From the IMG/VR virus record IMGVR_UViG_2721755497_000004: a DNA stretch of 47,379 bases. One strand, written 5' to 3'. The notes below the pieces were generated by a model that saw only the letters and a program-made list of their open reading frames with translations, was not told the origin of the DNA and did no database searches. The stretch is from a virus (taxonomy: Duplodnaviria; Heunggongvirae; Uroviricota; Caudoviricetes). Shown one piece after another: positions 23,632-47,379 of this stretch. The stretch's first letter is position 1, and the number at the start of each line of letters is the position of its first letter. The position numbers and the translations under genes were made by a program.

Positions 23632-23643
23632 GAGGTCGCCGCC
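23632..23643 (-). other. cosN cohesive-end site (GGGCGGCGACCT on minus strand)
   Basis: Exact 12-nt lambda cohesive end sequence, followed on the minus strand by sequence closely resembling the lambda left end. Confidence 0.8.
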
Positions 23644-23678
23644 CCGTAGCCTGCCGGATCGCCGGAAAGGACCCACAA

Positions 23679-27707: not shown

Positions 27708-29642
27708 TTACGCGTTATTCACTTCCACCACAATGCTGTCAATCAGCACCGGGTATGTTGCACCATTAGTGATATCGGTCACACGCAACTTGTCTGCCGT
27801 AAAAATTCCGACAGTGGACTGCGACAGCATGAACGGCGTCCCGTCCTGACCATCAATGACCGGCGTCACCTCAATACTGTTGTTACCGGCGAAACGGAAG
27901 CCCAACGTATGCCACTCGTTGTCAAATGCACCGAATGACCCCAGTTTCATGTTTTGCGCCGTATCGCCCTTGTGGTACATCACGTTAAGGTCTGTCGCAT
28001 CGCTCTGAACGTAAAAAGATGCCAGCAGGTTATGACCAGCATTACCTTCCAGGGTAACCCCTTGTGGCAGGGCAGAAACCGGCCAGTACAGCGCCAGTGC
28101 GTACTGATTAGCCGTAAGCGCGCCATCAAGTTTAAAACGACAATTGACAAGGCCGCCTTTGCCCAGCAGGTCGGCACCATTACCGGCATCATGTTCCAGG
28201 TACCAGGAGGATTTTCCCGTCGCTTTGGTAAGCTTCATCGCCTTACCTCCACTGGCTCCGGCATCATCCACAACAGCGGCACTACCTCCGCCAGCCCCCC
28301 AGCCCTGTGGAGTCAGTTGTCCTTCCGAATCGCTGGCCCTGTATGCAAACAGTGTTGTCATCCCGGTAGTTTCACCCGGTGATGTTGATGGAGTGTCAGG
28401 TGATGGCTTCTCATCCGGTGGTGTCACGGCCTGCCCGCCCAGCAGTTCAGCCGTGCGCCCTGCATGGAGCAGAATAGAGGAGGCCAGACGGTCAGAAATG
28501 ATGCCCCTGCGTGCCCATGAACTGAAATGGCTGTCACGCTGTGTCGAGACAAAACTGCCCTGGGTACGGGATGCCGCACCGTAATACCCGACAGCCACAA
28601 TATCCGGATCTTCCGTCGGAGCATTCGTTGGCGTGTTCTGTCCATTCTCATCCGTCAGGAACGGTACAAAGAAAATATTCTGAGTTTCCTTGCCTTTGTA
28701 GCCACCGTATACCGCCTCATATTTATCGGTGCCAGCGTTTTTCCAGTAATACGTGGTATCACCACAAATCCACGGTACCGTGCCAGCATTTCCACTCACG
28801 CACTGCGCAGCAAGCGGAGACAGGTCGGCTCTGAACTGCTGAACCATGGCAGTGAATAAACCATTATGCTGCTGACTTCCCGATGCAAGGTCTGCCTCTC
28901 CCTGCATCCAGACCACAGCCAGAAGTTTGTTTTTCGGGTTCTTCGCCAGCGCGACTTTGGTGCGGCTTACCAGGTCCTGATACAGAGGTTTACCGACTCC
29001 CCAGCGTGAAGAATCAGCGGAAGCACCGCTGGCCTCACTGAATGAACCGTCCGGCCCGGTGGTGAATGCTGACCCGCCACGGCAACAGGGCACCAGAAGT
29101 ATCCCGGCATTCTGCGGGATATAAGGCAGCAGTTTTTTGGCAATATGCAGCCCCTGACTCACACAACCATACTGCCCCTTGTTCAGGTCAGCTTTTGGGT
29201 GGTTTATCCCGCTCATGTCCTGCACATCATGCAGGCAGTGGTCTGCCGGAATGATGTCATTGTATTTACACGGCGTACCACCTGGCGTGACCGTGCTGCG
29301 GCGTGCCAGTTGCTTAATCCGTGGGTCCGGGCGGTCAAATGAATCCGGTAACGGAAGCCCTTCACCATAGGCCATGCCATTTGACTGCCCCGCCAGAACA
29401 ACAACAAAGTAATATTCTGGCTCACTGACTGTGCTCATTACCGTACCGCTGTCACCCGACGGCTTCACCACAACAGGCGTGGTGACATCACCCTCCGCTG
29501 CAATCGCCTGCATCAGGGTATAAGGCGTAATAGCAACCGGACTGCCAAACGGCTGCCAGCCTTCCTTCAGTTTTTGTGACAGTCGCTCCGCAAGCTCTGA
29601 CGGTGAAGCCGCCCTGACCACACCATAATGCTTAAATGTCAT
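27708..29642 (-). CDS. NanS-p-like sialate O-acetylesterase (SGNH/DUF303 hydrolase with C-terminal domain)
   Basis: ~645 aa from the MTFKHYGVV Met (RBS GGGAGGAG); GQSN motif; the position upstream of the lysis genes matches where I recall prophage nanS-p genes sitting. Confidence 0.65.
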   Translation of the reverse strand: MTFKHYGVVRAASPSELAERLSQKLKEGWQPFGSPVAITPYTLMQAIAAEGDVTTPVVVKPSGDSGTVMSTVSEPEYYFVVVLAGQSNGMAYGEGLPLPDSFDRPDPRIKQLARRSTVTPGGTPCKYNDIIPADHCLHDVQDMSGINHPKADLNKGQYGCVSQGLHIAKKLLPYIPQNAGILLVPCCRGGSAFTTGPDGSFSEASGASADSSRWGVGKPLYQDLVSRTKVALAKNPKNKLLAVVWMQGEADLASGSQQHNGLFTAMVQQFRADLSPLAAQCVSGNAGTVPWICGDTTYYWKNAGTDKYEAVYGGYKGKETQNIFFVPFLTDENGQNTPTNAPTEDPDIVAVGYYGAASRTQGSFVSTQRDSHFSSWARRGIISDRLASSILLHAGRTAELLGGQAVTPPDEKPSPDTPSTSPGETTGMTTLFAYRASDSEGQLTPQGWGAGGGSAAVVDDAGASGGKAMKLTKATGKSSWYLEHDAGNGADLLGKGGLVNCRFKLDGALTANQYALALYWPVSALPQGVTLEGNAGHNLLASFYVQSDATDLNVMYHKGDTAQNMKLGSFGAFDNEWHTLGFRFAGNNSIEVTPVIDGQDGTPFMLSQSTVGIFTADKLRVTDITNGATYPVLIDSIVVEVNNA

Positions 29643-29812
29643 TGCTCCTCCCGGACGGGATAATATGTTAACTAAGATGAGAGAGCAGGTGACAGCCCCG
29701 GCCGCATGAAAGTTCTGAGAGGGAAGTGCTGCCTGCTGCTCCATTGCACAGATTAATTACTGTCTGGTAGTATTCAGTGGCTGATTAGAATACTTCACAT
29801 TTTGTTATTTTG

Positions 29813-29847
29813 TGCAGCCCGTTACCATTCGTAGCGGGCTTTTTTTG
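29813..29847 (+). terminator. plus-strand hairpin plus T7 run
   Basis: AGCCCG...CGGGCT stem followed by TTTTTTT. Confidence 0.45.
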
Positions 29848-29850
29848 TCC

Positions 29851-29876
29851 ATAAAAAAGCCCCTCCGGAGAGGGGC
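29851..29876 (-). terminator. minus-strand intrinsic terminator (GCCCCTC-CGGA-GAGGGGC plus U6)
   Basis: Perfect 7-bp GC stem preceded on the plus strand by AAAAAA; lies downstream (minus sense) of repeat element A. Confidence 0.55.
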
Positions 29877-29907
29877 ATACTAGCTATATATCCATTTATC
29901 ATTGGCT

Positions 29908-30037
29908 GCGTGGTGCCGGGTGCCTCCCGGTGAGCTCAGCCTGGTGTCACTGAGCCCGCACATTCTCGATCCAAGTTATCGTCGGAGATAATACCTGATA
30001 CACCAGACGCCCCTCCGCACAGGGGGATTCACCACGC
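29908..30037 (-). repeat. structured repeat element A (closing helix GCGTGGTG/CACCACGC)
   Basis: 5' arm plus CCGGG-TGCCT-CCCGG hairpin ... variable core ... CCCCT-CCGCAC-AGGGG hairpin plus GATT plus 3' arm; strand assigned from the flanking terminators. Confidence 0.7.
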
Positions 30038-30265
30038 GCAGAGAAGGATACTGAACACTATTTTCTCCAGGCAATATGCAATAACATGAAGTGTGAGATG
30101 ACTTACAATTATAAAAAACAGCCTACAGAATACTCCTAAATAAAGCCATATCAAAATGAGTAACACAAAAAGGAACCAGGCAAAAATTTACGAGCAGGTA
30201 TTATCCAGCAACAGTTCAGACGCCATAACTTATTGCCGATAGCTACCATCAATAATTTCTTTCAT

Positions 30266-30289
30266 AAAAAAGCCCCTCTGAAGAGGGGC
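30266..30289 (-). terminator. minus-strand intrinsic terminator (GCCCCTC-TGAA-GAGGGGC plus U6)
   Basis: Near-identical copy of the element A terminator, downstream (minus sense) of element B. Confidence 0.55.
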
Positions 30290-30316
30290 TGACATACGCA
30301 TTTGCTTTCATCATCA

Positions 30317-30439
30317 ATATGGCGCCGGGTGCCTCCCGGTGCTCCATAACTGATTAATATGGAACGCGGTTTCATTCAGTTGCATTCATGAATAACACTC
30401 TAATCAGTCCGCCCCGCCGCTTAGGGGGATTCGCCATAT
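30317..30439 (-). repeat. structured repeat element B (closing helix ATATGGCG/CGCCATAT, compensatory change)
   Basis: Same architecture as A; terminal helix sequence differs from A but remains perfectly complementary. Confidence 0.7.
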
Positions 30440-30574
30440 AAATTGAAAGTACTGAACACATCTGTCACAAACAATATGCAATTGTATGAATTGTGAGATT
30501 ATTATCAATAACACAAAATTACAGCTCTAGTACATAAACAGCAGATTAAACAAGAACAACAAAAGTATTGAATT

Positions 30575-30700
30575 GCACGGTGCCGGGTGCCTCCCGGTGA
30601 ATTCTGCAATGACCAGACAGAATCCGCAACTTGCTACTAACGCTAATGCGACCAAGCCTAACAGTCATTATGCCCCTCCGCACAGGGGGATTCACCATGC
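30575..30700 (-). repeat. structured repeat element C (closing helix GCACGGTG/CACCATGC, one mismatch)
   Basis: Same conserved hairpins GGTGCCGGGTGCCTCCCGGTGA and CCCCTCCGCACAGGGGGATTCACCA; different variable core. Confidence 0.7.
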
Positions 30701-30829
30701 GCTAAAAAAATACAAAACGTCACGTCACTCTGACAATACGAAGCACCATAAAATGTGAGTTATTTATCAATTCTTAATTCTGGTTACAGGAATATTCCGA
30801 ATCAAATCTTTAAAAAAAGAAATTCAAAT

Positions 30830-30932
30830 GCATGGTGCCGGGTGCCTCCCGGTGAACAGACCGTCCGTGATACCAGTCGGCAACACAGGAAATTAATGGT
30901 ATCACCCCACCGCACAGGGGGATTCACCATGC
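30830..30932 (-). repeat. structured repeat element D (closing helix GCATGGTG/CACCATGC)
   Basis: Same conserved hairpins; shorter variable core containing its own 9-bp hairpin GTGATACCA/TGGTATCAC. Confidence 0.7.
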
Positions 30933-31121
30933 AGGCGTTTTCTTAGCAAACTAACTGCGCGCCCGGCAACTCCCAACCACATAAAACGTGGAGTTTGTAG
31001 CATTTATGCACATAACTCACAGGGGTTATCTTAAAAAAAGCTGACCATGCTTCCCCGGCAACGCAATAACTTTATTCCCTGAAGTGGCATCCCCCGTATT
31101 GTCGGCAGGCTCAAAAAGGAG

Positions 31122-31143
31122 CCAGTCATCTGAGGATGACTGG
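31122..31143 (-). terminator. hairpin CCAGTCATC-TGAG-GATGACTGG with nearby U-run on minus strand
   Basis: 9-bp perfect stem; the minus strand continues CTCCTTTTTGA. Confidence 0.35.
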
Positions 31144-31323
31144 AAAAAGGAAAGATAAAAAATTATTCATCATACAACCTTCGTTGCAGGGGAGAATCCT
31201 GCGGTGCAGCAACATACAAAAACATAAGCCAACTAACAATATGCAGGCATAGCATTTTCGGATTTTGTTATATGGCACGGTAACTGAATGCTTACCTGAT
31301 ATACAGTCCGGTATAAAGTTGCA

Positions 31324-31344
31324 AAAAACCGCCAGTTAAGGCGG
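31324..31344 (-). terminator. minus-strand intrinsic terminator (CCGCC-AGTTAA-GGCGG plus U6)
   Basis: 5-bp GC stem followed on the minus strand by TTTTTTG. Confidence 0.5.
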
Positions 31345-31587
31345 CATTCAAACAGACAACAGGATTTTTTCGTAATTTTAACAACTTCGGGGTGGCGCAT
31401 CGTCAGCCCCTGTCAGGAAGTACCAGAGCTCCCACCAACAATATCCCCCCATTCAGCGTTATCAAACACAGCACAGAAACTATCAATGTTTGCTGTTACA
31501 GTTAGGGAAAAAACGATAAATACGCCACAGGCTCTTTTTGCTGTGAAGTAAAAACTGATCTGAAAGACTGCTCATCATTTATTTTGC

Positions 31588-31665
31588 TGGACCGTCACCG
31601 GGGACTCGAACCCCGCATTTTCAACATAAAAAGGTTGATGCTCTTTCCTGATGAGCTAGTGACGG
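31588..31665 (-). tRNA. tRNA-like gene with 8-nt anticodon loop (possible unusual tRNA or pseudogene)
   Basis: 7-bp acceptor stem CCGTCAC/GTGACGG, encoded CCA, D arm GCTC/GAGC, T arm CGGGG-TTCGAGT-CCCCG, but anticodon arm TCAAC-CTTTTTAT-GTTGA has an 8-nt loop. Confidence 0.45.
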
Positions 31666-31667
31666 CA

Positions 31668-31742
31668 TGGTTGCCTTGCTGGATTTGAACCAGCGACCTG
31701 GCGATTATGAGTCTCTCGCTCTCACCACTGAGCTAAAGGGCC
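31668..31742 (-). tRNA. tRNA with CAU anticodon (Ile2/Met-like), acceptor and anticodon stems imperfect
   Basis: GGCCCTTTAGCTCAGTGG...CTCATAA...GCTGGTTCAAATCCAGC...CCA; D and T arms canonical; 3 terminal acceptor pairs and 2 anticodon-stem pairs mismatched; one nt short. Confidence 0.55.
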
Positions 31743-34619: not shown

Positions 34620-35669
34620 TTACCCAAGCACGCCAGTTGCAAAGGCGTGATCAAGAAAACGAAAAATTAAATCAACCTGAGAACCATGCTTTTCTTCGAA
34701 CGCCAGCGGATCCGCATGAAGCTCGTTGTGATGCTCCCGACACAGCGGTAGCGTGAAAATATCGTGAGATTTTGTCCCCATTCCGCCCTGACCATGACCA
34801 ATCAGGTGATGGGGATCGTCGGCTGGCTTACCACAACACGCACACGGCTGTGTCTTCACCCAGCGTGTGTATTTCTCGTTAACCCAGCGGCGACGTTTAG
34901 GTCGTTTCATGAAAGATTCCGGAGACTCAGGATCAACGGCAATGCTGACCACCGTCTTTTCCTGTGGTGGGTTCTGTTGCTGGTGGGCGTGAGGCAGCGG
35001 CGCAAGATTTTTTGTGCGCTGTTTCAGTATGCTGGTGGCGGTCTGCTCTCCCGGTACGATGTCGCTTTCACGGTACATTGAGCGGATTTTTTCCGCACGC
35101 AACCCCAGCGAACGACGTAATACCGCTTCCGGTAGCGCGTCCGCCACCTGATTGCGGACCGCCCACCAGGATAATTCAGCCAAAGATAATTCACGCTCCT
35201 GCGTACCGCTTATTGCGTGACCGATGACGTCAATCATCCATGCTGACAGGTTTTGATGAGCAAGTTGCTCGAGTGATTCGGATGTCTGGTCACGCAGCTG
35301 GTTGTCGCAGTGCCAGCACAACACCATTGCGCCGGTACCATAACGGTGAATGACGGTTTCGCTGTGATGATAATCGCCGTGTGGCCACTGGCAGGATTTA
35401 ATATGGCGCAACAGCCAGTCAGACAATGCACCAGCACCACCAGCAGCACGAATCACCCGTGCGTTACTGAAAAACGGCAGCAATGTTTTGTCTTCCACTA
35501 GCGGCTGGCGAACGGCAGGAACGACCCCGGACGGCAGATTACGCATGCTTTTCGGTTCCGGCTCCACCAGTACCCGGGTATTGTGGAATACCGGCATGGA
35601 TTCACGGCCCGGCTTAACGATCACCAGCCCGAGTTCCGGTACCAGAACAGGTCGAAGTAATACCCGCAC
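34620..35669 (-). CDS. DUF968/YdfU-like protein with C-terminal HNH-like motif
   Basis: 349-aa ORF (true start may be the internal MPVFHN Met); C-terminal CACCGKPADDPHHL...REHHNELH; Nin-region synteny. Confidence 0.5.
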   Translation of the reverse strand: MRVLLRPVLVPELGLVIVKPGRESMPVFHNTRVLVEPEPKSMRNLPSGVVPAVRQPLVEDKTLLPFFSNARVIRAAGGAGALSDWLLRHIKSCQWPHGDYHHSETVIHRYGTGAMVLCWHCDNQLRDQTSESLEQLAHQNLSAWMIDVIGHAISGTQERELSLAELSWWAVRNQVADALPEAVLRRSLGLRAEKIRSMYRESDIVPGEQTATSILKQRTKNLAPLPHAHQQQNPPQEKTVVSIAVDPESPESFMKRPKRRRWVNEKYTRWVKTQPCACCGKPADDPHHLIGHGQGGMGTKSHDIFTLPLCREHHNELHADPLAFEEKHGSQVDLIFRFLDHAFATGVLG

Positions 35670-36116: not shown

Positions 36117-36272
36117 TTACTCCTCAGGTTCGTAAGCTGTGAAGACAGCGACCTCCGTCTGGCCGGTTCGGATTCGTACCTCGCAGAGGTCTTTCCTCGT
36201 TACCAGTGCCGTCACTATGACGGTTAAACAGATGACGATCAGGGCGATTAACATCGCCTTTTGCTGCTTCAT
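36117..36272 (-). CDS. hokD: Hok-family type I toxin
   Basis: 51-aa MKQQKAMLIALIVICLTVIVTALVTRKDLCEVRIRTGQTEVAVFTAYEPEE, canonical Hok; nested in the longer mok-like frame starting at 36329. Confidence 0.85.
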   Translation of the reverse strand: MKQQKAMLIALIVICLTVIVTALVTRKDLCEVRIRTGQTEVAVFTAYEPEE

Positions 36273-36329
36273 AGCCTGCTTCTCCTTGCCTTTCGGCACG
36301 TAAGAGGCTAACCTAGATTTGCCGTTCAT
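36117..36329 (-). CDS. mok: Mok-like overlapping reading frame
   Basis: 70-aa frame (MNGKSRLASYVPKGKEKQA…) extending upstream of and in frame with hok. Confidence 0.45.
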   Translation of the reverse strand: MNGKSRLASYVPKGKEKQAMKQQKAMLIALIVICLTVIVTALVTRKDLCEVRIRTGQTEVAVFTAYEPEE

Positions 36330-36483
36330 AGATTGAGCCTCAGATTAATGTTAAGCGTCTTGCAGGACGCGTAATGTTAACTGGGGCTTTTCTCTATCTG
36401 CCTTTGGTGTTCATGCCTGAGACAGATAGCCTCAAGCACCCGCAGCCATTCTACTTAACTCCCGTTACCTCGCCAATATAAAA

Positions 36484-36573
36484 TCAATCAGAAAGGCGAT
36501 CCATAAGAACAACAGCAAGACAATAAATTGCCATTACAGCTGCAATAGCCAGCGCACATTTGAGAACCAGCAC
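36484..36573 (-). CDS. 29-codon hydrophobic small ORF with strong RBS (possible small membrane toxin-like peptide)
   Basis: AGGAGG then 5 nt then GTG CTG GTT CTC AAA TGT GCG...; peptide (M)LVLKCALAIAAVMAIYCLAVVLMDRLSD; not in ORF track (<60 aa). Confidence 0.35.
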   Translation of the reverse strand: MLVLKCALAIAAVMAIYCLAVVLMDRLSD

Positions 36574-37351
36574 GACAACCTCCTGTATTGGACGTACACC
36601 AGTCCTGATAAATATGAGGCTGTCTCATCATTGATGAGATACAACTATTGGGTATAGTTTCTGTGATTTTGTTCTGTAGAAATGGAACACAACAACCAGT
36701 CACCACCAGCACTTCTTTAAATACGCCAAGTCCGACGCAAGCTAACCTTCTAGTCCGCTTTGAGCGAAAAGCGGACATTCCTGTACAAAGCATGGCGTTG
36801 GAATACAGTAAGATCATTGATTAATAAGTGAGTCGAATCAGAACAGTAGCCAATGAAACAAAAAATTCGCAAACGTAACCAAGACTGGATATCAAGGCAA
36901 TTGAAACGTGCGCAAAAGAGGAAATGCCGTTAAGTTTCTTTATTAACTTTCCCTCAATATGAGCAACTGCTTGTAATGGTGTGCGCCTTAAACGGCATGG
37001 TCGTCTCAAGCCGGACTGGAGCCGCGCATTGTTTCATTAGGGTTGGGGAGAAGTGCCTATTGTTGGGCAAAAAGTAGTGTTTACTGGTTTGAGGGATTTG
37101 ATAAGGAGCAATTGCCTGTTGAATGGGGTGCGCTGTGGGAAGATGCCTGAATATATTGGTTTTGATTTGATCTCACAGTGCAACACACAATCAACTCTTA
37201 CAGTCTGCTGTGAGCAAAAATTGCACATTTCTAACAGCCTTCCGTGTGAATCAACGAGGAGCAGGTCACTGGCACAGAGGGGACGTTTAACCCCGTCCGG
37301 CCTCCGCTGAATTGGCTGCCAATTCCGTCCGGTCGTACCTGCCTGAGCCGT

Positions 37352-37576
37352 CTACTTCAGTAAAAACTGAATCAGCATAGCAAACATATATACTGTCGCT
37401 GCAATTTGTATTGTTCGCACTCCCCATCTGAGATATCGCCATTTATGACGTTCTCTGGCATCGGCTTCTTCAATGGTGGATTCAGTATGCTTTCTTCTCT
37501 TTGTCCTGAATGGATCAATTACCCATAGGGCAAGAATAAAGAGAACGATTGTTTTCTGAAGTATGGGATGATCCAC
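37352..37576 (-). CDS. hypothetical small membrane protein
   Basis: 74-aa ORF with two hydrophobic segments, GTG start. Confidence 0.3.
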   Translation of the reverse strand: MDHPILQKTIVLFILALWVIDPFRTKRRKHTESTIEEADARERHKWRYLRWGVRTIQIAATVYMFAMLIQFLLK

Positions 37577-37820
37577 GAAGAGTGACTCCGGCCTGCTCGC
37601 TGATACAATCAGAATAGATGAACAATCCCGAAATAATCAATACTAAATGTATGGCAATTATTTATTTTCGTCCTGGCTGGACTTTGTGACCTGCTCCCAA
37701 CAAATTAACATAGCACAATGTAAGCAAGTTCTGCTTTTGGCACAAAGCGGACAACCACGCTAGCTCTACCCTGTGCCACAAAATGTCAATTTGCATCTGA
37801 ACTAATGCACTTTAATCTCG

Positions 37821-38243
37821 TCACTTCAATAAATACCGAACATCCCCCTGATAAAACGACAATATGCGCTGCATAACTTCGCTCTTCCGGCACTCGCGAC
37901 AGATTATGTTTAGGCGACTGTCGTAGCGACGTATTTCTCCGTCAGGTAATGACCAGATAAGGTCCGGATCAACCACAACCGGTTTCTTCAGCTTTGCCCT
38001 CGATAATTTTTTGCGGGCATTTTGCCAGTCTTTACGAGCCTGTTCAGACGGGAATAACCCGTAGCCAGAATTGTATACATCGCCACTGGCAACCAGCTCT
38101 CTGGCCAGAACGCTCATCAGATATCTTGTTGCCCCAGTTTTAGCTTCCAGTTGTCGTAACGTCTCGCGCCCACTCTGGCGTACGAGTTCAAGAACCTGCC
38201 CTTTAATTTTTTCCCGCTCTTCTTGTGTAAAAACTTTTGCCAC
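37821..38243 (-). CDS. hypothetical protein
   Basis: 140-aa ORF, GTG start with RBS AGGAGG, downstream of the replication gene. Confidence 0.45.
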   Translation of the reverse strand: MAKVFTQEEREKIKGQVLELVRQSGRETLRQLEAKTGATRYLMSVLARELVASGDVYNSGYGLFPSEQARKDWQNARKKLSRAKLKKPVVVDPDLIWSLPDGEIRRYDSRLNIICRECRKSEVMQRILSFYQGDVRYLLK

Positions 38244-41480: not shown

Positions 41481-41540
41481 CATCGCCTATTAGGTTTGCG
41501 TCAAAAACATTAGGCTAAGCCTATTGACAATTAATTAGGC
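41481..41540. promoter_or_regulatory. additional TTAGGC-type palindromic sites downstream of racR
   Basis: TTAGGCTAAGCCTAT palindrome at 41509-41523 and related half-sites. Confidence 0.35.
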
Positions 41541-41732
41541 ATTACCTATAGTTCTCCCATACCACCCCACCCCGCCCACAGAACACCGGGCAATACTTCG
41601 AGTTACCCGGCAGTGGTCAGGGGTTAAGTAGCCAGCCTGAGGCGTAAGAACATGACGGCAGGGTTCAACTTTAATAACTATGCAGCAGGTTTTTGTTCCG
41701 CTCCCCCGGCGTTAAGGGGAAATGAGGTCAAC

Positions 41733-41998: not shown

Positions 41999-42556
41999 CT
42001 ACAGATTGCCGTTCAGTTTTCTGGCCAACTCCTCAATAGATGGAGGCGATACATAATCCGGATTTTTATTCATAAGAAACTGATTTTCACAGTAGAGGCA
42101 CCTGCTTTTATGAAAAAACTCATATTCTCTAACCGGGAATGGTTGAAGTATCGATACTATCTTTTGTCCAAAACATTTTGGACAAAGATGCATGATTATG
42201 CTGCCGCCGTTCACGGTTACCTCCTTCGAGTACACAAAAGTTCCCGACTCAAGTTGGTTAAGGATATAACCTTCCGTCTGAGCCTCAAAGTTTTCAAATT
42301 CTGCAATTTTAGCTTTGAGAGAAGCATTTATTTCTTGATAAGTGCCCACCAGCTCAACGAGAGACACGCATTCGCGCTGAATAGATGCAAGCTTTGAGTT
42401 CAGTTCACCAATAGCCGCATTTACTTCAGCTTGAGTTTTTGCCTCGTTCATTAGTTTTGCAATCTGAGCGGTTTCACGAATAGCCGTCATTGCTGCCGTT
42501 AATTCAGCGATCACATTCAATACTCTTATTGTTGTTGGGGATATCCAGATTAACAA
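41999..42556 (-). CDS. hypothetical coiled-coil protein with C-terminal zinc-ribbon (CPKC...CLYC)
   Basis: 185-aa AT-rich ORF counter-oriented within the leftward early region next to the repressor; exact start uncertain. Confidence 0.5.
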   Translation of the reverse strand: MLIWISPTTIRVLNVIAELTAAMTAIRETAQIAKLMNEAKTQAEVNAAIGELNSKLASIQRECVSLVELVGTYQEINASLKAKIAEFENFEAQTEGYILNQLESGTFVYSKEVTVNGGSIIMHLCPKCFGQKIVSILQPFPVREYEFFHKSRCLYCENQFLMNKNPDYVSPPSIEELARKLNGNL

Positions 42557-42864
42557 GATCCTTGTTGTTGGGGAATAACAGGTCCACCTCGCCTGACGTG
42601 GTTAAAAGCAGGCACACAACACGAAAGCGCTCGGCGAAGTTCGTCTCTCTGTACTTTGTCGTTAAATTTAATTCGACCGTGCGCTTCCGGTTGTGGCAAT
42701 CCGCGAAATAGCGCGGCGGTAAGTATGGCGGGGTTATTCCTTCCCCCATTGAGGACACCGGGTTGTCAGGTTGACCATACGCTTAAGTGACACCCCAGCC
42801 ACAACAACCTCTGTTATCACTTTTCTGGTGATTCGGCGGAAATGGATATCCGCCCTTTTTAAAG

Positions 42865-43020
42865 TGAATTTTGTGATGCGGTGAATGCGGCTATGCGCAC
42901 GCGGAACAGTTAAAACAAGCGGTCTTTTACTTCCGTAACAGACATCAACTAACAATCCGGCGTTAATTGTTAACTGGTTAACGTCATCTGGAGGCACCAG
43001 GCACCGCATCACAAAATTCA
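42865..43020. repeat. pair of perfect 19-bp inverted repeats (TGAATTTTGTGATGCGGTG / CACCGCATCACAAAATTCA) flanking 118 bp
   Basis: Exact reverse complements at 42865-42883 and 43002-43020; interior contains GTTAAC-type palindromes. Confidence 0.6.
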
Positions 43021-43037
43021 TTGTTGAGGACGCGATA

Positions 43038-43226
43038 ATGGAAACGTTATTACCAAACGTTAATACGTCTGAAGGTTGTTTTGAAATTGGTGTCAGTATC
43101 AGTAACCCTGCATTTACTGAAGATGCCATTAATAAGAGAAAACACGAACGGGAGTTATTAAATCAAATATGCATTGTTTCAATGCTGGCCCGTTTACGTC
43201 TGATGCAAAAAGGATACTGGCAATGA
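43038..43226 (+). CDS. hypothetical small protein
   Basis: 62-aa ORF starting right after the inverted-repeat structure; ATGA-coupled to the next ORF. Confidence 0.4.
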   Translation: METLLPNVNTSEGCFEIGVSISNPAFTEDAINKRKHERELLNQICIVSMLARLRLMQKGYWQ

Positions 43227-43414
43227 ATACAGCATTCGCACTCGTTCTGACAGTTTTTCTTAATACCGGCGAACCACTTGATCTTATTGTTGATATACGT
43301 GACTCAATGGAAGAATGCATGGCTGCCGCAGATGAACAGAAAATTCCCGGTAACTGTTATCCGGTAGATAAAGTTATTCGCATGGATAATAACAAAGTCC
43401 CGGCAGGGCTTTAA
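43223..43414 (+). CDS. hypothetical small protein with signal-peptide-like N-terminus
   Basis: ~63 aa MNTAFALVLTVFLNTGEPLD..., RBS AAAGGA. Confidence 0.45.
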   Translation: MNTAFALVLTVFLNTGEPLDLIVDIRDSMEECMAAADEQKIPGNCYPVDKVIRMDNNKVPAGL

Positions 43415-43504: not shown

Positions 43505-45961
43505 ATGAGCGCTGATAAAGAAGAAATTGCACTATATTACGAAGCCAAAAATGACAAAGTCAGAAAACGTCTTGGGATTAAAGGCGGTTTTTACTGGCGC
43601 ACAGCAAAAAAATTATCGGTTGCAATATCACGCGGTGTTGTCGCAATGGACGATGCTGGATTTGACGAAGAGGATTTTAAAAAACCTGTTCGCGTCCATT
43701 TACCCGTTGTGAATGACCTTCCTCCGGAAGGCGTGTTTGATACCGAATTCTGCAACCGATACGAAAAAGGCGGGGAAGATGGTATCACAATGGTACTTAT
43801 CGCGCCCTCACCTATCGCGCCCTCACCCTCTGTTCAGGACAAACCAGCCAGCACTGACAATACCAACGTCAACGGCGAAGACATGACTGAGATTGAGGAG
43901 AATATGCTCCTGCCGGTTTCAGGTCAGATTCTGCCTGTTCAATGGCTGGCACAGCACGGCAGCGAAAAACCGATCACACACGTTTCGCGGGGCGAACTGC
44001 GCGCATTACATAACGCACAGGATGAAAAACTTCCCGCCGTTACCGCGCTGGCCATCTCAAATAAAGCTGCGCAACTCGAACCGCTGGAAATTCGCGATCT
44101 CCACAAACTGGTTCGTGACACTGACAAGGTTTTCCCTAATCCTGGTAATTCAGACCTGGGGCTGATGACTGCTTTTTTCGAAGCATACCTGGGCGCTGAC
44201 TACACCGATCGCGGTCTGCTGACAAAAGAGTGGATGAAAGGAAATCGTGTTTCACGCATCACCCGCACGACTTCCGGTGCTAATGCCGGTGGAGGGAACA
44301 AAACCGATCGCAATCCGAATTTAGTACACACCCTCGACACACTGGATGTGGAGATTGCAGCAGCCACACTTCCGATGGATTTTAATATTTATGAAATTCC
44401 GGGCAGCATTTATCGTCGCGCAAAAGAAGTCGTCCTGAAAAAAGAAAGTCCGTTCAAAGAATGGTCCGCAGCACTTCGTGCAACCCCGGGTATTCTGGAC
44501 TATTCCCGCGCCGCTATTTTTGCACTTATCCGAAGCGCACACCCTGAATTTTATCACTACCCGGGACGCCTTCAGGGGTATATCAACGCCTATTTGACGG
44601 AAACTGATCACGAGACCCCCAGCAAGGAAACTCTCACAGCTGCCCGGCATACGCCGGAAAAAGATATCCTGGAAGAAATTAACCGCGAGGTGGTTACTGA
44701 GCGTGAAACAGAAAAAGAAAAACCACAACCATCTGACGCAATGGCAGGTGAACAGGCAACAACTGAAACAATGGAACAGGATACAACTGAACATTGCCAG
44801 GACGCGCAGTCGCTGGATGCTCAGTCGCAGGTGAGTTCCGCTAACCAATTAAAAGTCACCGCTGACGAAGTAAACAAAATTATGCAGGCAGCCAGTATCA
44901 GCCAGCCTGATGCCGATAAGTTGCTTGCTGTATCGCGTGGTGAATTTGTTGAAGGGATTAGCGATCCGAATGATCCTAAATGGGTGAAGGGGATTGAAAC
45001 CCGCGATTCTGTGAACCAGAACCAGCAAGAAACGGAACAGAACGACCAGAAAGCGGAACAAAACAGCCCAAATACGCAACAAAACGAGCCAGAAACGAAA
45101 CAACCTGAACCAGTAGTGCAACAAGAACCGGAAAAGATCTGCGCCGCCTGCGGTCAGAGCGGTGGCGGCAACTGCCCTGATTGTGGTGCGGTGATGGGCG
45201 ACGCAACATACCAGGAAACATTCGATGACAAGAACCAGGTTGAAGTTCAGGAAGACGATTCGGAGAAAATGGAAGGCGCTGAACATCCACACAAGGAGAA
45301 TGCTGGCAGCGCTCAGGACCACGCCAGCGATAGTGAAACTGACGAGACGGCAGATCCCTTAATTACGGTGAACAGTCATCACGTTATCACATCCACCAGC
45401 AGGACGTGTGACCATCTAATGATCGACCTTGAAACCATGGGAAAAAATCCTGATGCCCCGATTATCTCAATAGGTGCAATATTTTTCGATCCGCAAACCG
45501 GAGATATGGGACCGGAATTTAGTAAGACTGTCGATCTGGAAACTGCTGGCGGAGTCATTGATCGGGACACCATTAAATGGTGGCTTAAGCAATCACGCGA
45601 AGCGCAATCTGCCATTATGACCGATGAAATCCCGTTAGATGATGCACTGTTACAATTGCGGGAATTTATCGACGAAAACTCCGGTGAATTTTTTGTTCAG
45701 GTCTGGGGTAACGGTGCAACTTTCGACAACGTGATTTTACGCCGTTCATATGAACGGCAGGGGATCCCCTGCCCGTGGCGTTACACCAATGATCGCGATG
45801 TAAGAACGATGGTTGCTCTGGGACTGGTGATGGATTTCGACGCAAGAACGACTATTCCATTCGAAGGTGAACGCCATAACGCCCTGCACGATGCGCGTTA
45901 CCAGGCAAAATACGTTTCAGCCATCTGGCAAAAACTGATCCCGAGTCAGGCTGATTTTTAA
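43505..45961 (+). CDS. RecE-like prophage exonuclease with C-terminal DEDDh (DnaQ-like) 3'-5' exonuclease domain
   Basis: 818-aa ORF; N-terminal and central segments resemble the RecE non-catalytic region as recalled; C-terminal ~190 aa has Exo I (MIDLETMG), Exo II (WGNGATFD) and Exo III (HNALHDARY) motifs; acidic linker with CxxC...CxxC. Confidence 0.7.
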   Translation: MSADKEEIALYYEAKNDKVRKRLGIKGGFYWRTAKKLSVAISRGVVAMDDAGFDEEDFKKPVRVHLPVVNDLPPEGVFDTEFCNRYEKGGEDGITMVLIAPSPIAPSPSVQDKPASTDNTNVNGEDMTEIEENMLLPVSGQILPVQWLAQHGSEKPITHVSRGELRALHNAQDEKLPAVTALAISNKAAQLEPLEIRDLHKLVRDTDKVFPNPGNSDLGLMTAFFEAYLGADYTDRGLLTKEWMKGNRVSRITRTTSGANAGGGNKTDRNPNLVHTLDTLDVEIAAATLPMDFNIYEIPGSIYRRAKEVVLKKESPFKEWSAALRATPGILDYSRAAIFALIRSAHPEFYHYPGRLQGYINAYLTETDHETPSKETLTAARHTPEKDILEEINREVVTERETEKEKPQPSDAMAGEQATTETMEQDTTEHCQDAQSLDAQSQVSSANQLKVTADEVNKIMQAASISQPDADKLLAVSRGEFVEGISDPNDPKWVKGIETRDSVNQNQQETEQNDQKAEQNSPNTQQNEPETKQPEPVVQQEPEKICAACGQSGGGNCPDCGAVMGDATYQETFDDKNQVEVQEDDSEKMEGAEHPHKENAGSAQDHASDSETDETADPLITVNSHHVITSTSRTCDHLMIDLETMGKNPDAPIISIGAIFFDPQTGDMGPEFSKTVDLETAGGVIDRDTIKWWLKQSREAQSAIMTDEIPLDDALLQLREFIDENSGEFFVQVWGNGATFDNVILRRSYERQGIPCPWRYTNDRDVRTMVALGLVMDFDARTTIPFEGERHNALHDARYQAKYVSAIWQKLIPSQADF

Positions 45962-46016
45962 TGTTCAACCGTCGCCAGTTGTAGTTGCTATTCTGCAACT
46001 GGCACATTCCGGAGTG

Positions 46017-46292
46017 ATGGCCATGAGCGAACAGTACCTGATAACGCTCGACGAGTGGAAACCTAAACGGTTCAGTCTCCCAATAACAAACACTACCCTG
46101 GTGAAATACGGAAAACTGGGATACATCGTTCCAAGGCCACAAAAAATCCGTGGGCGTTGGCTGATAGATCGCCGAGCAGTATTTGTGGGTCCTGCTGAAA
46201 CAGGAATTGCGCCGGAAATTCATACTGACGATGATGACGCACTGAAGGAGATTTTAACTCATGTCACCGAGGCCACGAAAAAACAGCACTGA
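46017..46292 (+). CDS. xis: excisionase (Xis-like)
   Basis: ~91-aa ORF immediately upstream of and overlapping int. Confidence 0.55.
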   Translation: MAMSEQYLITLDEWKPKRFSLPITNTTLVKYGKLGYIVPRPQKIRGRWLIDRRAVFVGPAETGIAPEIHTDDDDALKEILTHVTEATKKQH

Positions 46293-47379
46293 CATAGCAT
46301 GTCTTTACGAAAAGTTTGATCGCAGAACTGGCAAGGTTTACTACCAGTATAAAAATCCAGTGACTGGAAAATTTCACGGACTCGGTACAGACAAAGGCAA
46401 GGCAGAAAAAATCGCTTCCACGGCTAATCAACGAATAGCTGCAGCAGAAGCAGAATATTTCATGCGCAAAATTGATGAAAGTCCATCAGCAACAAAACGT
46501 CGGGGTATCAGATTAAAAGCATGGGTTGATCGATATCTGAAAATACAGGACTCACGACTGAAAAATGGAGATATTGCAGCTACAACCCACAAAGAAAAGG
46601 CGCGAATGGCTGCATACCTGGTTTCCCGCCTGGGAAATCACCCATTGAAAGACCTGGAAGTAAGAGACTTTGCATTAATACTGGATGAATGGCTGGATAA
46701 AGACATGGTCAGCACAGCGAGAGTAAATCGCGGATTATGGGTTGATATTTATAAAGAAGCACAACATGCAGGGGAAGTTCCTCCTGGATGGAATCCTCCG
46801 GAGGCTACCCGTAAACCGATCCCTAAAGTAACCAGAGCCAGGCTCGCCCTGGAAGACTGGCAAAAAATTTACAACGCAACGCCGGAAAAACACTTTATCC
46901 GTAACGCAATGCTTCTTGCGATTGTCACTGGTCAGCGCCGTGATGACATTTGCCACATGCGTTTTTCAGATGTGTGGAACGAACACTTGCATATCACCCA
47001 GGGAAAAACCGGAATGCGTCTGGCGTTACCGCTTACACTACGCTGTGATGCCATTGGGATAACGTTAAAAGACGTTATTGATGGATGCCGAGACAGAATA
47101 TTAAGTCCATATCTAATCCATAGTCGGCACCAGAAACAACCAAAGCCGATGAGTAAAGACAACCTGAGCGACTACTTTGCCAAAGCGCGGGATCTGGCTG
47201 GAATAATTCCACCAGCAGGAAAAACACCGCCCACATTTCATGAACAACGCTCTCTATCTGAACGGCTGTACCGTGCACAGGGTATCGATACAAAAACCTT
47301 ACTAGGACATAAAGTCCAGGCAACCACCGATCGCTATAACGATACCCGAGGTCAGGAATGGGTTAAGTTGGTTATTTGA
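46261..47379 (+). CDS. int: tyrosine integrase (lambda Int family)
   Basis: 372-aa ORF; C-terminal catalytic region ...HEQRSLSERLY...LLGHK...RYNDTRGQEWVKL resembles lambda Int; stop codon is the last 3 nt of the window. Confidence 0.9.
   Translation: MSPRPRKNSTDIACLYEKFDRRTGKVYYQYKNPVTGKFHGLGTDKGKAEKIASTANQRIAAAEAEYFMRKIDESPSATKRRGIRLKAWVDRYLKIQDSRLKNGDIAATTHKEKARMAAYLVSRLGNHPLKDLEVRDFALILDEWLDKDMVSTARVNRGLWVDIYKEAQHAGEVPPGWNPPEATRKPIPKVTRARLALEDWQKIYNATPEKHFIRNAMLLAIVTGQRRDDICHMRFSDVWNEHLHITQGKTGMRLALPLTLRCDAIGITLKDVIDGCRDRILSPYLIHSRHQKQPKPMSKDNLSDYFAKARDLAGIIPPAGKTPPTFHEQRSLSERLYRAQGIDTKTLLGHKVQATTDRYNDTRGQEWVKLVI

What the first reader, a model, noticed from the sequence alone, without database searches (positions are those of the whole stretch)
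43505..46016. RecE-like protein with a DEDDh exonuclease domain and no adjacent annealase
The 818-aa product combines a RecE-like N-terminal/central region with a C-terminal domain carrying the three DEDDh motifs of DnaQ-like 3'-5' exonucleases, rather than the lambda-Exo-like nuclease fold of RecE as I understand it. No recT/bet-like gene follows; xis starts about 50 bp after the stop. An acidic low-complexity linker with a CxxC...CxxC motif precedes the nuclease domain. This looks like a domain-swapped recombination or anti-defence nuclease.
Basis: partly seen in the sequence, partly recalled or inferred. Interest (0 to 1): 0.6.

Follow-up and report, generated by a model that had tools for sequence, protein, structure and literature searches.

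The report
RecE scaffold carrying a DEDDh exonuclease

Summary
ORF 43505-45961 (+, 818 aa) matches Rac RecE only over aa 1-621. It then carries a complete PF16473 (Rv2179c/T4 DexA-like) DEDDh domain (aa 637-808; D641, E643, D741, H791, D796) where RecE has its PD-(D/E)XK domain. No RecT, Bet, lambda Exo or Gam is encoded in the window; xis and int follow directly. The zinc ribbon and acidic linker are not new: K-12 RecE has them too.

It is not novel. The window is 100% identical to E. coli M3, where RefSeq calls the gene "exonuclease". The DEDDh segment occurs in 4052 of 5426 complete E. coli genomes, against 1728 for the recE nuclease domain plus recT. Phage Tritos has the same dicB-ydfD-exo-xis-int layout. 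A 2025 paper lists Tritos as the prototype of a nuclease-only, annealase-less, Chi-rich module type and, separately, reports DnaQ-like nucleases in lambdoid phages.

Most likely it is an induction-expressed 3'-to-5' exonuclease on the RecE N-terminal scaffold, in a phage that leaves recombination to host RecBCD/Chi (15 Chi sites, 2.1 expected). Its physiological role is inferred, not shown. A defence role, as reported for other prophage DEDDh exonucleases, is the main rival. Interest is low to moderate.

The parts
43505..45961 (+). Exonuclease CDS, 818 aa (RefSeq WP_073520752.1, 'exonuclease')
   Evidence: ORF list; 100% identical locus in E. coli M3, NZ_CP010183.1; GAGG 8 nt upstream of the ATG.
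43505..44704 (+). Folded N-terminal scaffold shared with RecE (aa 1-~400): an alpha/beta domain (aa 1-100), a disordered loop (aa 103-114) and a mainly helical domain (aa ~120-400); contains PF06630 at aa 56-194
44849..45364 (+). Acidic, low-complexity linker (aa 449-620), shared with K-12 RecE and with the Tritos-type nuclease
   Evidence: Composition: D+E 0.18-0.26, Q/N/S/T/P/G up to 0.56; about 90% identical to Tritos from aa 449 onward; 73.5% DNA identity to Rac recE over 44715-45363, which ends at recE aa ~591.
45140..45184 (+). Four-Cys zinc-ribbon-like motif C546-x2-C549...C557-x2-C560
   Evidence: Motif positions; weak Pfam DZR hit; conserved in K-12 RecE and Tritos.
45393..45400 (-). 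Chi site (GCTGGTGG on the - strand) at the scaffold/nuclease junction, aa 630-632
   Evidence: lies 30 nt after RecE homology ends and 15 nt before the codon of M639, where the standalone homologues begin; present in 75 of 80 related loci and in Tritos; absent from K-12 recE.
45413..45928 (+). DEDDh 3'-5' exonuclease domain (PF16473, aa 637-808); catalytic codons D641 (45425-45427), E643 (45431-45433), D741 (45725-45727), H791 (45875-45877), D796 (45890-45892)
   Evidence: Pfam E 8.8e-66; residues invariant in alignment A1; PDB sequence hit to T4 DexA 8KEL, E 5.4e-7; fold match to DexA and RNase T.
45974..46003 (+). Stable hairpin between the exonuclease stop and xis (no U-tract)
   Evidence: RNA fold of 45955-46030: MFE -27.3 kcal/mol, z -3.77; the DNA is conserved in Tritos up to 46003.
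46023..46292 (+). Excisionase (xis)
   Evidence: RefSeq annotation; PF07825.
46261..47379 (+). Lambda-type integrase; potC follows in the host chromosome
   Evidence: PF09003 + PF00589; context in strain M3.
43038..43414 (+). dicB and ydfD (DUF1482), the conserved upstream partners in the same operon
   Evidence: RefSeq; Pfam DUF1482; dicB-ydfD lies directly upstream in 73 of 80 related loci.
41524..41552 (+). Candidate early-left promoter (TTGACA-17-TATAGT, 11 of 12) downstream of racR
   Evidence: Consensus scan. No + strand promoter-like site lies between it and the exonuclease start, but such scans are not evidence of function.
23633..23644 (-). cosN identical to lambda (GGGCGGCGACCT); it sets the virion orientation used to read Chi polarity

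Best explanation
The gene encodes an active, metal-dependent DEDDh 3'-to-5' exonuclease of the T4 DexA / Rv2179c-like family (PF16473). This nuclease sits on the folded N-terminal scaffold and acidic zinc-ribbon linker of RecE, in place of RecE's PD-(D/E)XK 5'-to-3' nuclease. It is the last gene before xis-int in the repressor-controlled early-left operon (racR | promoter - DUF1391 - dicB - ydfD - exo - xis - int), so it should be made on induction or infection rather than in the quiescent lysogen. It has no annealase partner and the opposite polarity to RecE, so it cannot work as a RecET/Red-type resect-and-anneal machine. The phage has no Gam-like RecBCD inhibitor and is Chi-rich in the orientation that is active from the right cos end. 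Recombination-dependent growth is therefore presumably left to host RecBCD-Chi-RecA. The exonuclease would then be an accessory enzyme that trims 3'-OH DNA ends, for example removing 3' tails so that ends stay usable by RecBCD, or degrading 3'-ended DNA as DexA does.

Shown here: the architecture, intact catalytic residues, the fold, absence of an annealase, the Chi excess, the conserved synteny and the prevalence. Inferred: activity, DNA rather than RNA as substrate, timing of expression, and the physiological role.
For: Architecture and swap point. Catalytic residues invariant. Fold; closest solved relative is T4 DexA, a 3'-5' DNA exonuclease. The gene is kept intact: 69 of 80 IMG/VR loci have an ORF of 811-830 aa, and the DEDDh segment covers >=80% in 4052 of 5426 complete E. 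coli genomes. No annealase: none in the window; no RecT, Bet, Exo or Gam match in the flanks of 80 related loci; no annealase family among the 25 Pfam families listed for the co-oriented ORFs of those loci. The standalone 189-aa homologue occupies the same slot just upstream of xis-int in Salmonella prophages. Operon placement and lack of a promoter of its own. Chi: 15 sites against 2.1 expected, 11 on the strand active from the right cos end, all in the right arm. This matches the nuclease-only, annealase-less, anti-RecBCD-less, Chi-rich 'Tritos' module type of Zheng et al. 2025 (PMC12315714). Tritos has the same gene order, and aa 449-818 are about 90% identical.
Against: No biochemical or genetic data exist for this protein or any close relative. 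The founding member of PF16473, Rv2179c, is an exoribonuclease (family name and my recollection), so RNA could be the substrate. According to Zheng et al., citing Lovett 2011, 3'-5' exonucleases usually inhibit rather than promote homologous recombination. Those authors also regard one-gene modules as 'somewhat suspect'. Other prophage or mobile-element DEDDh exonucleases have been shown, on plasmid expression, to act in defence. The promoter scan is only a consensus match, so expression in the lysogen is not excluded. The function of the N-terminal scaffold is unknown.
Confidence: 0.5

Rival explanations
1. A prophage-encoded defence or superinfection-exclusion nuclease. The DEDDh domain would destroy nucleic acid of competing phages, either base-modified DNA (as reported for the E. 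coli DexA homologue EcD, 'HREX') or 3' ends of ssRNA phage genomes (as reported for 'TONDO' DEDDh exonucleases that carry variable auxiliary domains). The RecE scaffold would act as the auxiliary or targeting domain.
For: T4 DexA is the closest solved relative. EcD, a standalone E. coli DexA homologue, digests 5hmC T4 DNA and protects against T4 when expressed from a plasmid (PMC12153337). TONDOs are DEDDh exonucleases in prophages and mobile elements that have non-homologous auxiliary domains and block MS2 and Qbeta (PMC13344964). The gene occupies the accessory slot next to int, and the same operon carries dicB. From my recollection, not checked here, DicB has been reported to block infection by some phages.
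Against: The gene lies inside the repressed early-left operon with no promoter-like site of its own. By analogy with the Qin dicB operon this operon should be silent in the lysogen (my knowledge). In the phmmer alignment the DexA Trp152 needed for 5hmC reading aligns to Thr761, and DexA D90, whose loss defines EcD-like enzymes, aligns to an Asp; that alignment is at ~24% identity (Foldseek value), so this is weak. EcD begins MIDTET... and ends ...TIPETY (primers) and is not among the 120 closest relatives of this domain. TONDOs were selected as ISG20-like proteins under 500 aa, and their relation to PF16473 could not be tested. PADLOC has no specific model hit. A defence gene present in 75% of genomes, often in several copies, would be unusual.
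Confidence: 0.22
2. A genuine recombination nuclease that works with an annealase or recombinase supplied in trans: RecT from a co-resident Rac-type prophage, another prophage's annealase, or host RecA. It would generate 5' overhangs or process intermediates.
For: It keeps the whole RecE N-terminal region, which enhances linear-linear recombination in full-length RecE (review PMC11611040). It occupies the position of recE in a Rac/Qin-like prophage. Zheng et al. find DnaQ-type genes tightly packed with annealase genes in some phages such as epsilon34. E. coli genomes commonly carry several lambdoid prophages: 1728 of 5426 have recE nuclease domain plus recT.
Against: RecT binds RecE's C-terminal nuclease domain (my recollection of the RecET literature, not checked here), and that domain is absent. 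There were no RecT or Bet matches in 80 related loci and no annealase family among the Pfam families listed for their co-oriented ORFs. There are far more DEDDh copies (8110 places) than Rac-type recT copies (at most 1841 places). A 3'-5' exonuclease destroys the 3' tails that annealases and RecA normally use.
Confidence: 0.1
3. An exoribonuclease, as the Pfam family name suggests, that trims 3' ends of phage or host RNAs during induction. Candidates are transcripts of its own dicF/dicB-type operon or the xis-int message, whose 5' side carries a strong hairpin.
For: PF16473 is named for the exoribonuclease Rv2179c. RNase T and Orn are close structural neighbours. A stable hairpin lies directly downstream. 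In Tritos and Qin the operon encodes the processed sRNA DicF.
Against: The nearest solved relative, DexA, is a DNase. RNase T itself acts on DNA in the matched crystal structures. The scaffold comes from a DNA recombination nuclease. No DicF was detected in this window at Rfam's gathering score.
Confidence: 0.1
4. A decaying or selfish remnant with no current function, carried along by mosaic recombination.
For: Prophage early regions are rich in relics. The K-12 Qin copy (ydfE) is truncated by IS2. 11 of 80 sampled loci have ORFs outside the 811-830 aa range (10 shorter, one of 852 aa).
Against: The ORF is full length in 69 of 80 sampled loci and the DEDDh segment is near-complete in 4052 of 5426 genomes. 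Catalytic residues are invariant down to 58% identity. Both domains give high-confidence fold predictions. The domain is also kept as a standalone gene in the same slot in other genera.
Confidence: 0.03

Closest known systems
RecE (exonuclease VIII) of the E. coli K-12 Rac prophage
   Same: N-terminal about 600 residues: PF06630, the helical middle domain, and the acidic linker with the 4-Cys motif. Identity is 51-55% over RecE 50-592. Both sit in the early-left operon of a RacR-type lambdoid prophage.
   Different: RecE's PD-(D/E)XK nuclease domain (PF12684, aa 615-850) is replaced by a DEDDh domain, so the expected polarity is 3'-5' rather than 5'-3'. There is no recT, ralR or rcbA downstream. 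The score is below the NCBIfam RecE cut-off.
Phage Tritos nuclease TRITO_27 and the 'Tritos' Rec-module type (Zheng et al. 2025, Genome Res, PMC12315714)
   Same: Same gene order (dicB-ydfD-exo-xis-int); aa 449-818 about 90% identical, including the DEDDh domain and the junction Chi; no annealase and no anti-RecBCD gene; many Chi sites.
   Different: The first ~270 aa are unrelated: Tritos has no PF06630, whereas the window protein has the RecE-type N-terminus. Residues 270-448 are only 36-41% identical. In 80 IMG/VR loci, 54 have the Tritos-type N-terminus and 25 the RecE type. I could not read the paper's supplementary table to see how it classifies the Tritos nuclease.
T4 DexA (exonuclease A; PDB 8KEL/8KEN)
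   Same: Closest solved structure by sequence (E 5.4e-7) and by fold (E 7e-11, TM 0.70). The same DEDDh catalytic set: DexA D119/H186/D191 correspond to D741/H791/D796, and DexA D7 plus the acidic residue of the same FIIDFET motif (E9 in the alignment; the paper's legend prints E12) to D641/E643.
   Different: About 24% identity. DexA is a standalone 227-aa protein of a virulent phage with extra loops. The Trp152 equivalent is not conserved here.
EcD / 'HREX' (E. coli DexA homologue, PMC12153337) and TONDO exonucleases (PMC13344964)
   Same: DEDDh exonucleases encoded in E. coli or on mobile elements. TONDOs also combine the nuclease with a variable auxiliary domain.
   Different: Both were shown to defend only when expressed from plasmids. 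EcD is a short standalone protein of another subfamily (it starts MIDTET). TONDOs are ISG20-like, under 500 aa and act on RNA. Neither sequence was available for direct comparison.
Standalone PF16473 proteins of Salmonella, Citrobacter and Klebsiella prophages (for example P0097, 189 aa)
   Same: 58-61% identical to aa 639-818, all catalytic residues conserved, and the same position immediately upstream of xis-int.
   Different: No RecE scaffold. Different upstream genes (YfdP, DUF2303, DndB-like).
ydfE pseudogene of the K-12 Qin prophage
   Same: Same locus type (dicF-dicB-ydfD-ydfE...intQ). ydfE is the first 256 aa of the Tritos-type exonuclease at 99% identity.
   Different: It is truncated by IS2E, so K-12 has no intact DEDDh copy. 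This probably explains why the protein has not been studied.

Membership tests
RecE / exodeoxyribonuclease VIII (NCBIfam NF007259 equivalog) | N-terminal Exonuc_VIII region (PF06630) | tested here: met
   PF06630 at aa 56-194, 96.4 bits against a cut-off of 25.
RecE / exodeoxyribonuclease VIII (NCBIfam NF007259 equivalog) | Whole-protein score at or above the curated cut-off | tested here: not met
   906.8 bits against a cut-off of 1269; only profile positions 1-603 of 877 are matched.
RecE / exodeoxyribonuclease VIII (NCBIfam NF007259 equivalog) | C-terminal PD-(D/E)XK (lambda-Exo-like) nuclease domain | tested here: not met
   K-12 RecE has PF12684 at aa 615-850 and the query does not. There is no tblastn match to RecE residues beyond 592. 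The C-terminal fold is DEDDh.
RecE / exodeoxyribonuclease VIII (NCBIfam NF007259 equivalog) | Adjacent partner annealase (recT) | tested here: not met
   No RecT or Bet in the window or in 80 related loci; no annealase family among the Pfam families listed for their ORFs.
PF16473 Rv2179c-like / T4 DexA-type DEDDh exonucleases | Full-length profile match above the gathering score | tested here: met
   221.4 bits against 27, profile positions 2-177 of 177.
PF16473 Rv2179c-like / T4 DexA-type DEDDh exonucleases | The three Exo motifs with D, E, D, H, D | tested here: met
   D641, E643 / D741 / H791-x4-D796; invariant across alignment A1.
PF16473 Rv2179c-like / T4 DexA-type DEDDh exonucleases | RNase H-like DnaQ fold | tested here: met
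   AlphaFold2 pLDDT 81.6; Foldseek top hits are DexA, RNase T, Cas2-DnaQ, Cap18 and Orn, all at probability 1.00.
PF16473 Rv2179c-like / T4 DexA-type DEDDh exonucleases | 3'-5' exonuclease activity | not testable with these tools
   Requires a biochemical assay.
'Tritos'-type lambdoid Rec module (Zheng et al. 2025) | Nuclease present; annealase, SSB and anti-RecBCD genes absent | tested here: met
   Gam was tested by tblastn. Abc2, GamL and MuGam were judged only from the RefSeq annotation and from the lack of free coding space in 41.4-43.5 kb.
'Tritos'-type lambdoid Rec module (Zheng et al. 2025) | [quoted passage not shown] | tested here: met
   11 Chi on the cos-defined top strand and 4 on the other, all within the ~24 kb right arm, none in the structural arm.
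'Tritos'-type lambdoid Rec module (Zheng et al. 2025) | Homology to the prototype's nuclease | tested here: met
   aa 449-818 are about 90% identical to TRITO_27 in the same gene order; the N-terminal ~270 aa differ.
HREX / EcD-type 5hmC-DNA defence exonuclease | Equivalents of DexA W152 and D169 (5hmC reading) | tested here: not met
   In the phmmer alignment W152 aligns to T761 and D169 to D777. The alignment is at ~24% identity (Foldseek value), so confidence is low.
HREX / EcD-type 5hmC-DNA defence exonuclease | Loss of the tetramer-forming Asp (DexA D90) | tested here: not met
   D90 aligns to an Asp (D713) in the query; low-confidence alignment.
HREX / EcD-type 5hmC-DNA defence exonuclease | Protection against T4 and selective cleavage of modified DNA | not testable with these tools
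   Needs phage challenge and nuclease assays.
TONDO (ISG20-like anti-RNA-phage exonucleases) | Sequence membership in the ISG20-like clade | not tested
   No TONDO sequences or accessions were available.

The most novel reading that the evidence does not exclude
The RecE N-terminal region (about 400 folded residues with no structural relative in the PDB, plus a zinc-ribbon linker) may be a nuclease-agnostic delivery platform. Lambdoid phages would plug either a 5'-3' PD-(D/E)XK or a 3'-5' DEDDh nuclease into it. The DEDDh version, present in about 75% of complete E. coli genomes but broken in K-12, would then perform a function not yet described. One possibility is annealase-independent end-processing that cooperates with host RecBCD/Chi. 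The other is an induction-time or leaky exclusion nuclease against competing phages. The conserved Chi site exactly at the module junction could be the recombination hotspot that keeps the two nuclease cassettes exchangeable.
Probability: 0.2. Interest if true: 0.6.

Novelty: already known. Interest (0 to 1): 0.3.

Why it matters
As a discovery it matters little. The gene is identical to an annotated RefSeq protein, and the PF06630+PF16473 architecture is precomputed for many database entries. The nuclease-only, annealase-less module type to which it belongs was described in 2025.

As an open question it has some value. The 'RecE-like' gene most E. coli strains carry is not a RecE-type nuclease but a 3'-5' exonuclease of untested function, and routine annotation often still calls it exodeoxyribonuclease VIII. 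K-12 lacks an intact copy, which probably explains the neglect. Knowing its role would bear on three things: how Chi-rich lambdoid phages without Red/RecET or Gam manage recombination-dependent growth, what the enigmatic N-terminal two-thirds of RecE does, and whether these abundant prophage nucleases contribute to phage exclusion.

Tried and rejected
1. Literature search for 'Rv2179c' plus 'RecE' returned only noise, because word-start matching caught 'recent' and 'received'. 'Rv2179c-like', 'RecE+DEDDh+prophage' and 'ydfE+Qin+exonuclease' gave nothing relevant.
2. PADLOC gave only a weak generic cas-associated DEDDh hit (E 2e-5), which does not support a named defence system.
4. The EcD sequence (HAK9828821.1) could not be obtained. 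Only its termini could be deduced from primers, and no protein among those retrieved matches them.
5. A weak lambda Gam tblastn hit at 34830-34940 (E 0.001) lies inside the DUF968 gene and was judged spurious.
6. Rfam found no DicF upstream of dicB at the gathering score, only a sub-threshold STnc100 match.
7. Long antisense ORFs inside the gene (44321-44848 and 44849-45322, - strand) lie opposite the low-complexity linker. They are not annotated and were not treated as genes.
8. The idea that the CxxC linker is specific to the fusion was rejected after alignment with K-12 RecE.
9. The supplementary tables of Zheng et al. 2025 were not held, so their exact classification of the Tritos nuclease could not be checked.


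Full report
**1. What is at the coordinates**

An uninterrupted ORF runs from ATG 43505 to the stop at 45961 on the + strand and encodes 818 aa. A GAGG motif lies 8 nt upstream of the start. The window is base-for-base identical to E. coli M3 (mouse isolate) NZ_CP010183.1 positions 33257-80635. It covers almost a whole lambdoid prophage integrated next to potC. RefSeq calls the product WP_073520752.1 'exonuclease'.

The local gene order is racR, DUF1391, a reverse-strand hypothetical ORF, dicB, ydfD (DUF1482), the exonuclease, xis and int. The finding's end coordinate (46016) is simply the start of xis.

**2. Domain content**

Pfam finds PF06630 (Exonuc_VIII) at aa 56-194. It also finds a complete PF16473 'Rv2179c-like 3'-5' exoribonuclease' domain at aa 637-808 (E 8.8e-66).

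The NCBIfam RecE equivalog aligns only aa 1-621 to profile positions 1-603 of 877. The score, 906.8 bits, falls below the cut-off of 1269.

Comparison with K-12 RecE:
- BLASTP and tblastn give 51-55% identity over RecE residues 50-592 and nothing afterwards.
- At DNA level, similarity to Rac recE ends at 45363, which corresponds to recE codon ~591.
- K-12 RecE itself is PF06630 plus PF12684 (PDDEXK-like, aa 615-850).

So one nuclease cassette replaces the other at the same position.

The DEDDh residues are D641 and E643 (MIDLETMG), D741 (NGATFDN), and H791 and D796 (HNALHD). All five are invariant in 13 homologues down to 58% identity. AlphaFold2 of aa 620-818 gives pLDDT 81.6 and pTM 0.80. 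Foldseek against the PDB returns T4 DexA (8KEL, E 7e-11, TM 0.70), then RNase T, the Cas2-DnaQ domain, Cap18 and oligoribonucleases. No PD-(D/E)XK protein appears among the 50 matches listed. By sequence, the only PDB hit is also DexA.

**3.

The acidic, low-complexity linker and the C546-x2-C549...C557-x2-C560 motif lie within the RecE-homologous part. They are conserved in K-12 RecE (CNACGQTGGDNCPDCG) and in the Tritos nuclease. They belong to the shared scaffold and are not products of the fusion.

**4. No annealase**

Within the window:
- tblastn of K-12 RecT, lambda Bet, Exo and Gam, RalR, RcbA and the RecE C-terminus gives only chance-level hits.
- The RefSeq annotation lists no annealase.
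- Pfam on ten hypothetical or DUF proteins finds none.

In 80 related IMG/VR loci with up to 7 kb of flank:
- None has RecT, Bet, Exo, Gam or a RecE C-terminus.
- 73 have dicB-ydfD immediately upstream.
- xis and int follow in most, and many contigs end just after int.

I also ran a Pfam census on the co-oriented flank ORFs of those loci, taking one representative per cluster of at least ~125 aa. It shows repressors, integrases, transposases, NleG and Rha, but no RecT, ERF or Rad52-type family among the 25 families listed. The 13 families not listed are single-member families ranked below those shown.

**5. How common it is**

Counts in 5426 complete E. coli genomes:

| Query | Genomes with >=80% coverage | Places |
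|---|---|---|
| DEDDh segment (45368-45961) | 4052 | 8110 (up to 7 per genome) |
| K-12 recE nuclease domain plus recT | 1728 | 1841 |
| Whole gene, with this RecE-type N-terminus | 1258 | not counted separately |

RefSeq annotates the DEDDh segment as 'exonuclease', '3'-5' exonuclease' or '3'-5' exoribonuclease domain-containing protein'. In the large protein collection, many entries have the precomputed architecture PF06630+PF16473 and names such as 'RecE family exodeoxyribonuclease'.

A search of 1.84 billion cluster representatives with aa 1-448 finds only 226 relatives, so the scaffold family is narrow. Of 67 long representatives:
- 49 have PF06630.
- 18 carry the PDDEXK domain.
- 12 carry the DEDDh domain.
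- 2 carry a fused RecT domain.
- The rest have no recognised nuclease.

The swap is therefore old and recurrent, not a one-off.

**6. The protein is a three- or four-part mosaic**

Phage Tritos (OV696610.1) has the same order, dicF-dicB-ydfD-exo-xis-int. Its 823-aa nuclease compares with the window protein as follows:
- about 90% identical from aa 449 to the end;
- 36-41% identical over aa ~270-448;
- unrelated over the first ~270 aa, with no PF06630.

Of the 80 IMG/VR loci, 54 have the Tritos-type N-terminus and 25 the RecE type. The K-12 Qin pseudogene ydfE is the first 256 aa of the Tritos type (99% identity), cut by IS2E. The laboratory strain therefore lacks an intact copy.

Standalone 183-190-aa versions of the nuclease occur in Salmonella, Citrobacter and Klebsiella. 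They are 58-61% identical to the window's nuclease domain and begin at its M639 or four residues upstream of it. In Salmonella prophages they sit in the same slot directly upstream of xis-int.

A Chi site (- strand, 45393-45400, aa 630-632) lies exactly between the end of RecE homology and the start of the DEDDh domain. It is conserved in 75 of 80 loci and in Tritos, while K-12 recE has none.

**7. The scaffold**

This agrees with a 2023 review. [quoted passage not shown] That N-terminal domain is dispensable for recombination but enhances linear-linear recombination (PMC11611040).

**8. Context relevant to mechanism**

A strong sigma-70-like site (TTGACA-17-TATAGT) at 41524-41552 lies just downstream of racR and faces the operon. 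No promoter-like site lies on the + strand between it and the exonuclease. This is only a consensus scan. It suggests early, repressor-controlled expression, as for recE in Rac.

cosN identical to lambda's lies at 23633-23644 on the - strand, which fixes the virion orientation. The window has 15 Chi octamers against 2.1 expected (none of 100 shuffles reached 15). Eleven are on the strand that is active for RecBCD entering at the right cos end. All 15 lie in the ~24-kb right arm and none in the structural-gene arm.

Zheng et al. 2025 (PMC12315714) describe this pattern for lambdoid phages lacking an anti-RecBCD gene. They list a 'Tritos' module type: nuclease present, annealase absent, SSB absent, anti-RecBCD absent, and 21/6-7/2 Chi sites. 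[quoted passage not shown] They also note that DnaQ-type genes near int may not be true Rec-module members and that one-gene modules are 'somewhat suspect'. I could not read their supplementary table, so how they classify the Tritos nuclease itself is unconfirmed.

**9. Most likely mechanism**

Shown here:
- an intact DEDDh exonuclease domain of the DexA/Rv2179c family on the RecE scaffold;
- strong conservation of the intact ORF;
- no annealase and no Gam;
- a Chi-rich right arm;
- placement within the early-left operon.

Inferred: on induction the protein trims 3'-OH ends. It cannot carry out RecET-type resect-and-anneal recombination. The phage relies on RecBCD-Chi-RecA. The exonuclease would be an accessory end-processing or DNA-degrading enzyme, delivered by whatever the scaffold binds.

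That 3' tails hinder RecBCD entry, and that single-strand exonucleases can help by blunting ends, is my recollection of the E. coli recombination literature. It was not tested here. I put about 0.5 on this package. Most of the doubt attaches to the physiological role rather than to the enzymology.

**10. Rivals**

(a) Defence or exclusion, about 0.22.
- For: the E. coli DexA homologue EcD digests 5hmC DNA and protects against T4 from a plasmid (PMC12153337).
- For: 'TONDO' DEDDh exonucleases with variable auxiliary domains, found in prophages, block ssRNA phages (PMC13344964).
- Against: the gene appears repressed in the lysogen.
- Against: the DexA Trp152 equivalent is Thr761 and the D90 equivalent is retained, in a low-identity alignment.
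- Against: EcD belongs to a different subfamily.
- Against: PADLOC has no specific hit.

(b) Recombination with an annealase supplied in trans, about 0.1. It is disfavoured by the missing RecT-binding domain, the reversed polarity and the copy-number mismatch.

(c) An exoribonuclease acting on operon or other RNAs, about 0.1. The family name, the RNase T and Orn structural neighbours and a strong hairpin downstream speak for it. The DexA relationship and the DNA-recombination scaffold speak against.

(d) A functionless relic, about 0.03. Conservation contradicts this.

**11. Verdict**

The object is already catalogued in RefSeq, Pfam architectures and PHROGs 607, 2082 and 20376. It is homologous to the nuclease of phage Tritos, the prototype of a module type published in 2025. 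It is the majority form of the 'RecE-like' gene in E. coli.

It is a real and functionally unexplored protein, but not a new kind of system. Interest is 0.3.

Noticed in passing
window 45393-45400 (- strand): A Chi octamer sits exactly at the junction between the RecE-homologous scaffold and the DEDDh cassette. It is conserved in 75 of 80 related loci and in phage Tritos, and is absent from K-12 recE. It could be a coincidence or a hotspot that promotes cassette exchange.
   Followed up: partly
window 25632-47216; cosN at 23633-23644 (-): There are 15 Chi sites (2.1 expected), 11 in the orientation active from the right cos end. All lie in the right arm of the virion map and none in the 23 kb of head and tail genes. 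cosN is identical to lambda's.
   Followed up: partly
window 45974-46003: A stable hairpin (GCCAGTTGTAG...CTGCAACTGGC) lies between the exonuclease stop and xis. MFE is -27.3 kcal/mol (z -3.8) and no U-tract follows, so it is not an intrinsic terminator. It may be a processing or regulatory site for xis-int expression. The DNA is conserved in Tritos.
   Followed up: partly
L091 (K-12 NC_000913.3) 6079-6846: The Qin prophage pseudogene ydfE is the first 256 aa of the Tritos-type DEDDh exonuclease (99% identity), truncated by IS2E. E. coli K-12 therefore has no intact copy of this very common gene.
   Followed up: yes
proteins P0241-P0390: Among 67 diverse proteins carrying the RecE N-terminal scaffold, 2 have a fused RecT domain. 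About half have no recognisable nuclease domain; they may be partial sequences or the nuclease-less 'RecE-2' type mentioned by Zheng et al.
   Followed up: no
window 29650-31590: The slot between tRNA-Ile/tRNA-Lys (31588-31742) and a NanS-p-like sialate esterase gene (27708-29642) is where Stx phages carry stx. Here it holds no ORF above 63 aa, only short repeated fragments.
   Followed up: partly
window 8596-9759 (- strand): An ompC-like porin gene is inserted among the tail genes in a low-GC patch (0.39-0.48). It looks like a lysogenic-conversion moron.
   Followed up: no
window 41999-42556 (- strand): A 185-aa ORF lies in the opposite orientation inside the early-left region (RefSeq annotates 41999-42514). 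It has a coiled-coil-like N-terminal half and CPKC...CLYC cysteine pairs, with no Pfam family. It could be a gene expressed in the lysogen.
   Followed up: no
window 42853-43070 (+): A sub-threshold Rfam match to the sRNA STnc100 (32.5 bits, gathering score 47, E 2.9e-5) overlaps the dicB start. No DicF was detected at the gathering score, although Tritos and Qin carry DicF at the equivalent place.
   Followed up: partly
window 36272-37821: A 1.5-kb stretch between hokD and the DUF977 gene has no annotation and no convincing ORF. It contains one Chi site.
   Followed up: no
L087-L090 4743-6570: In Salmonella prophages the standalone DEDDh exonuclease follows a DndB-like protein (PF14072) and YfdP/DUF2303 genes, again directly upstream of xis-int.
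   Followed up: no
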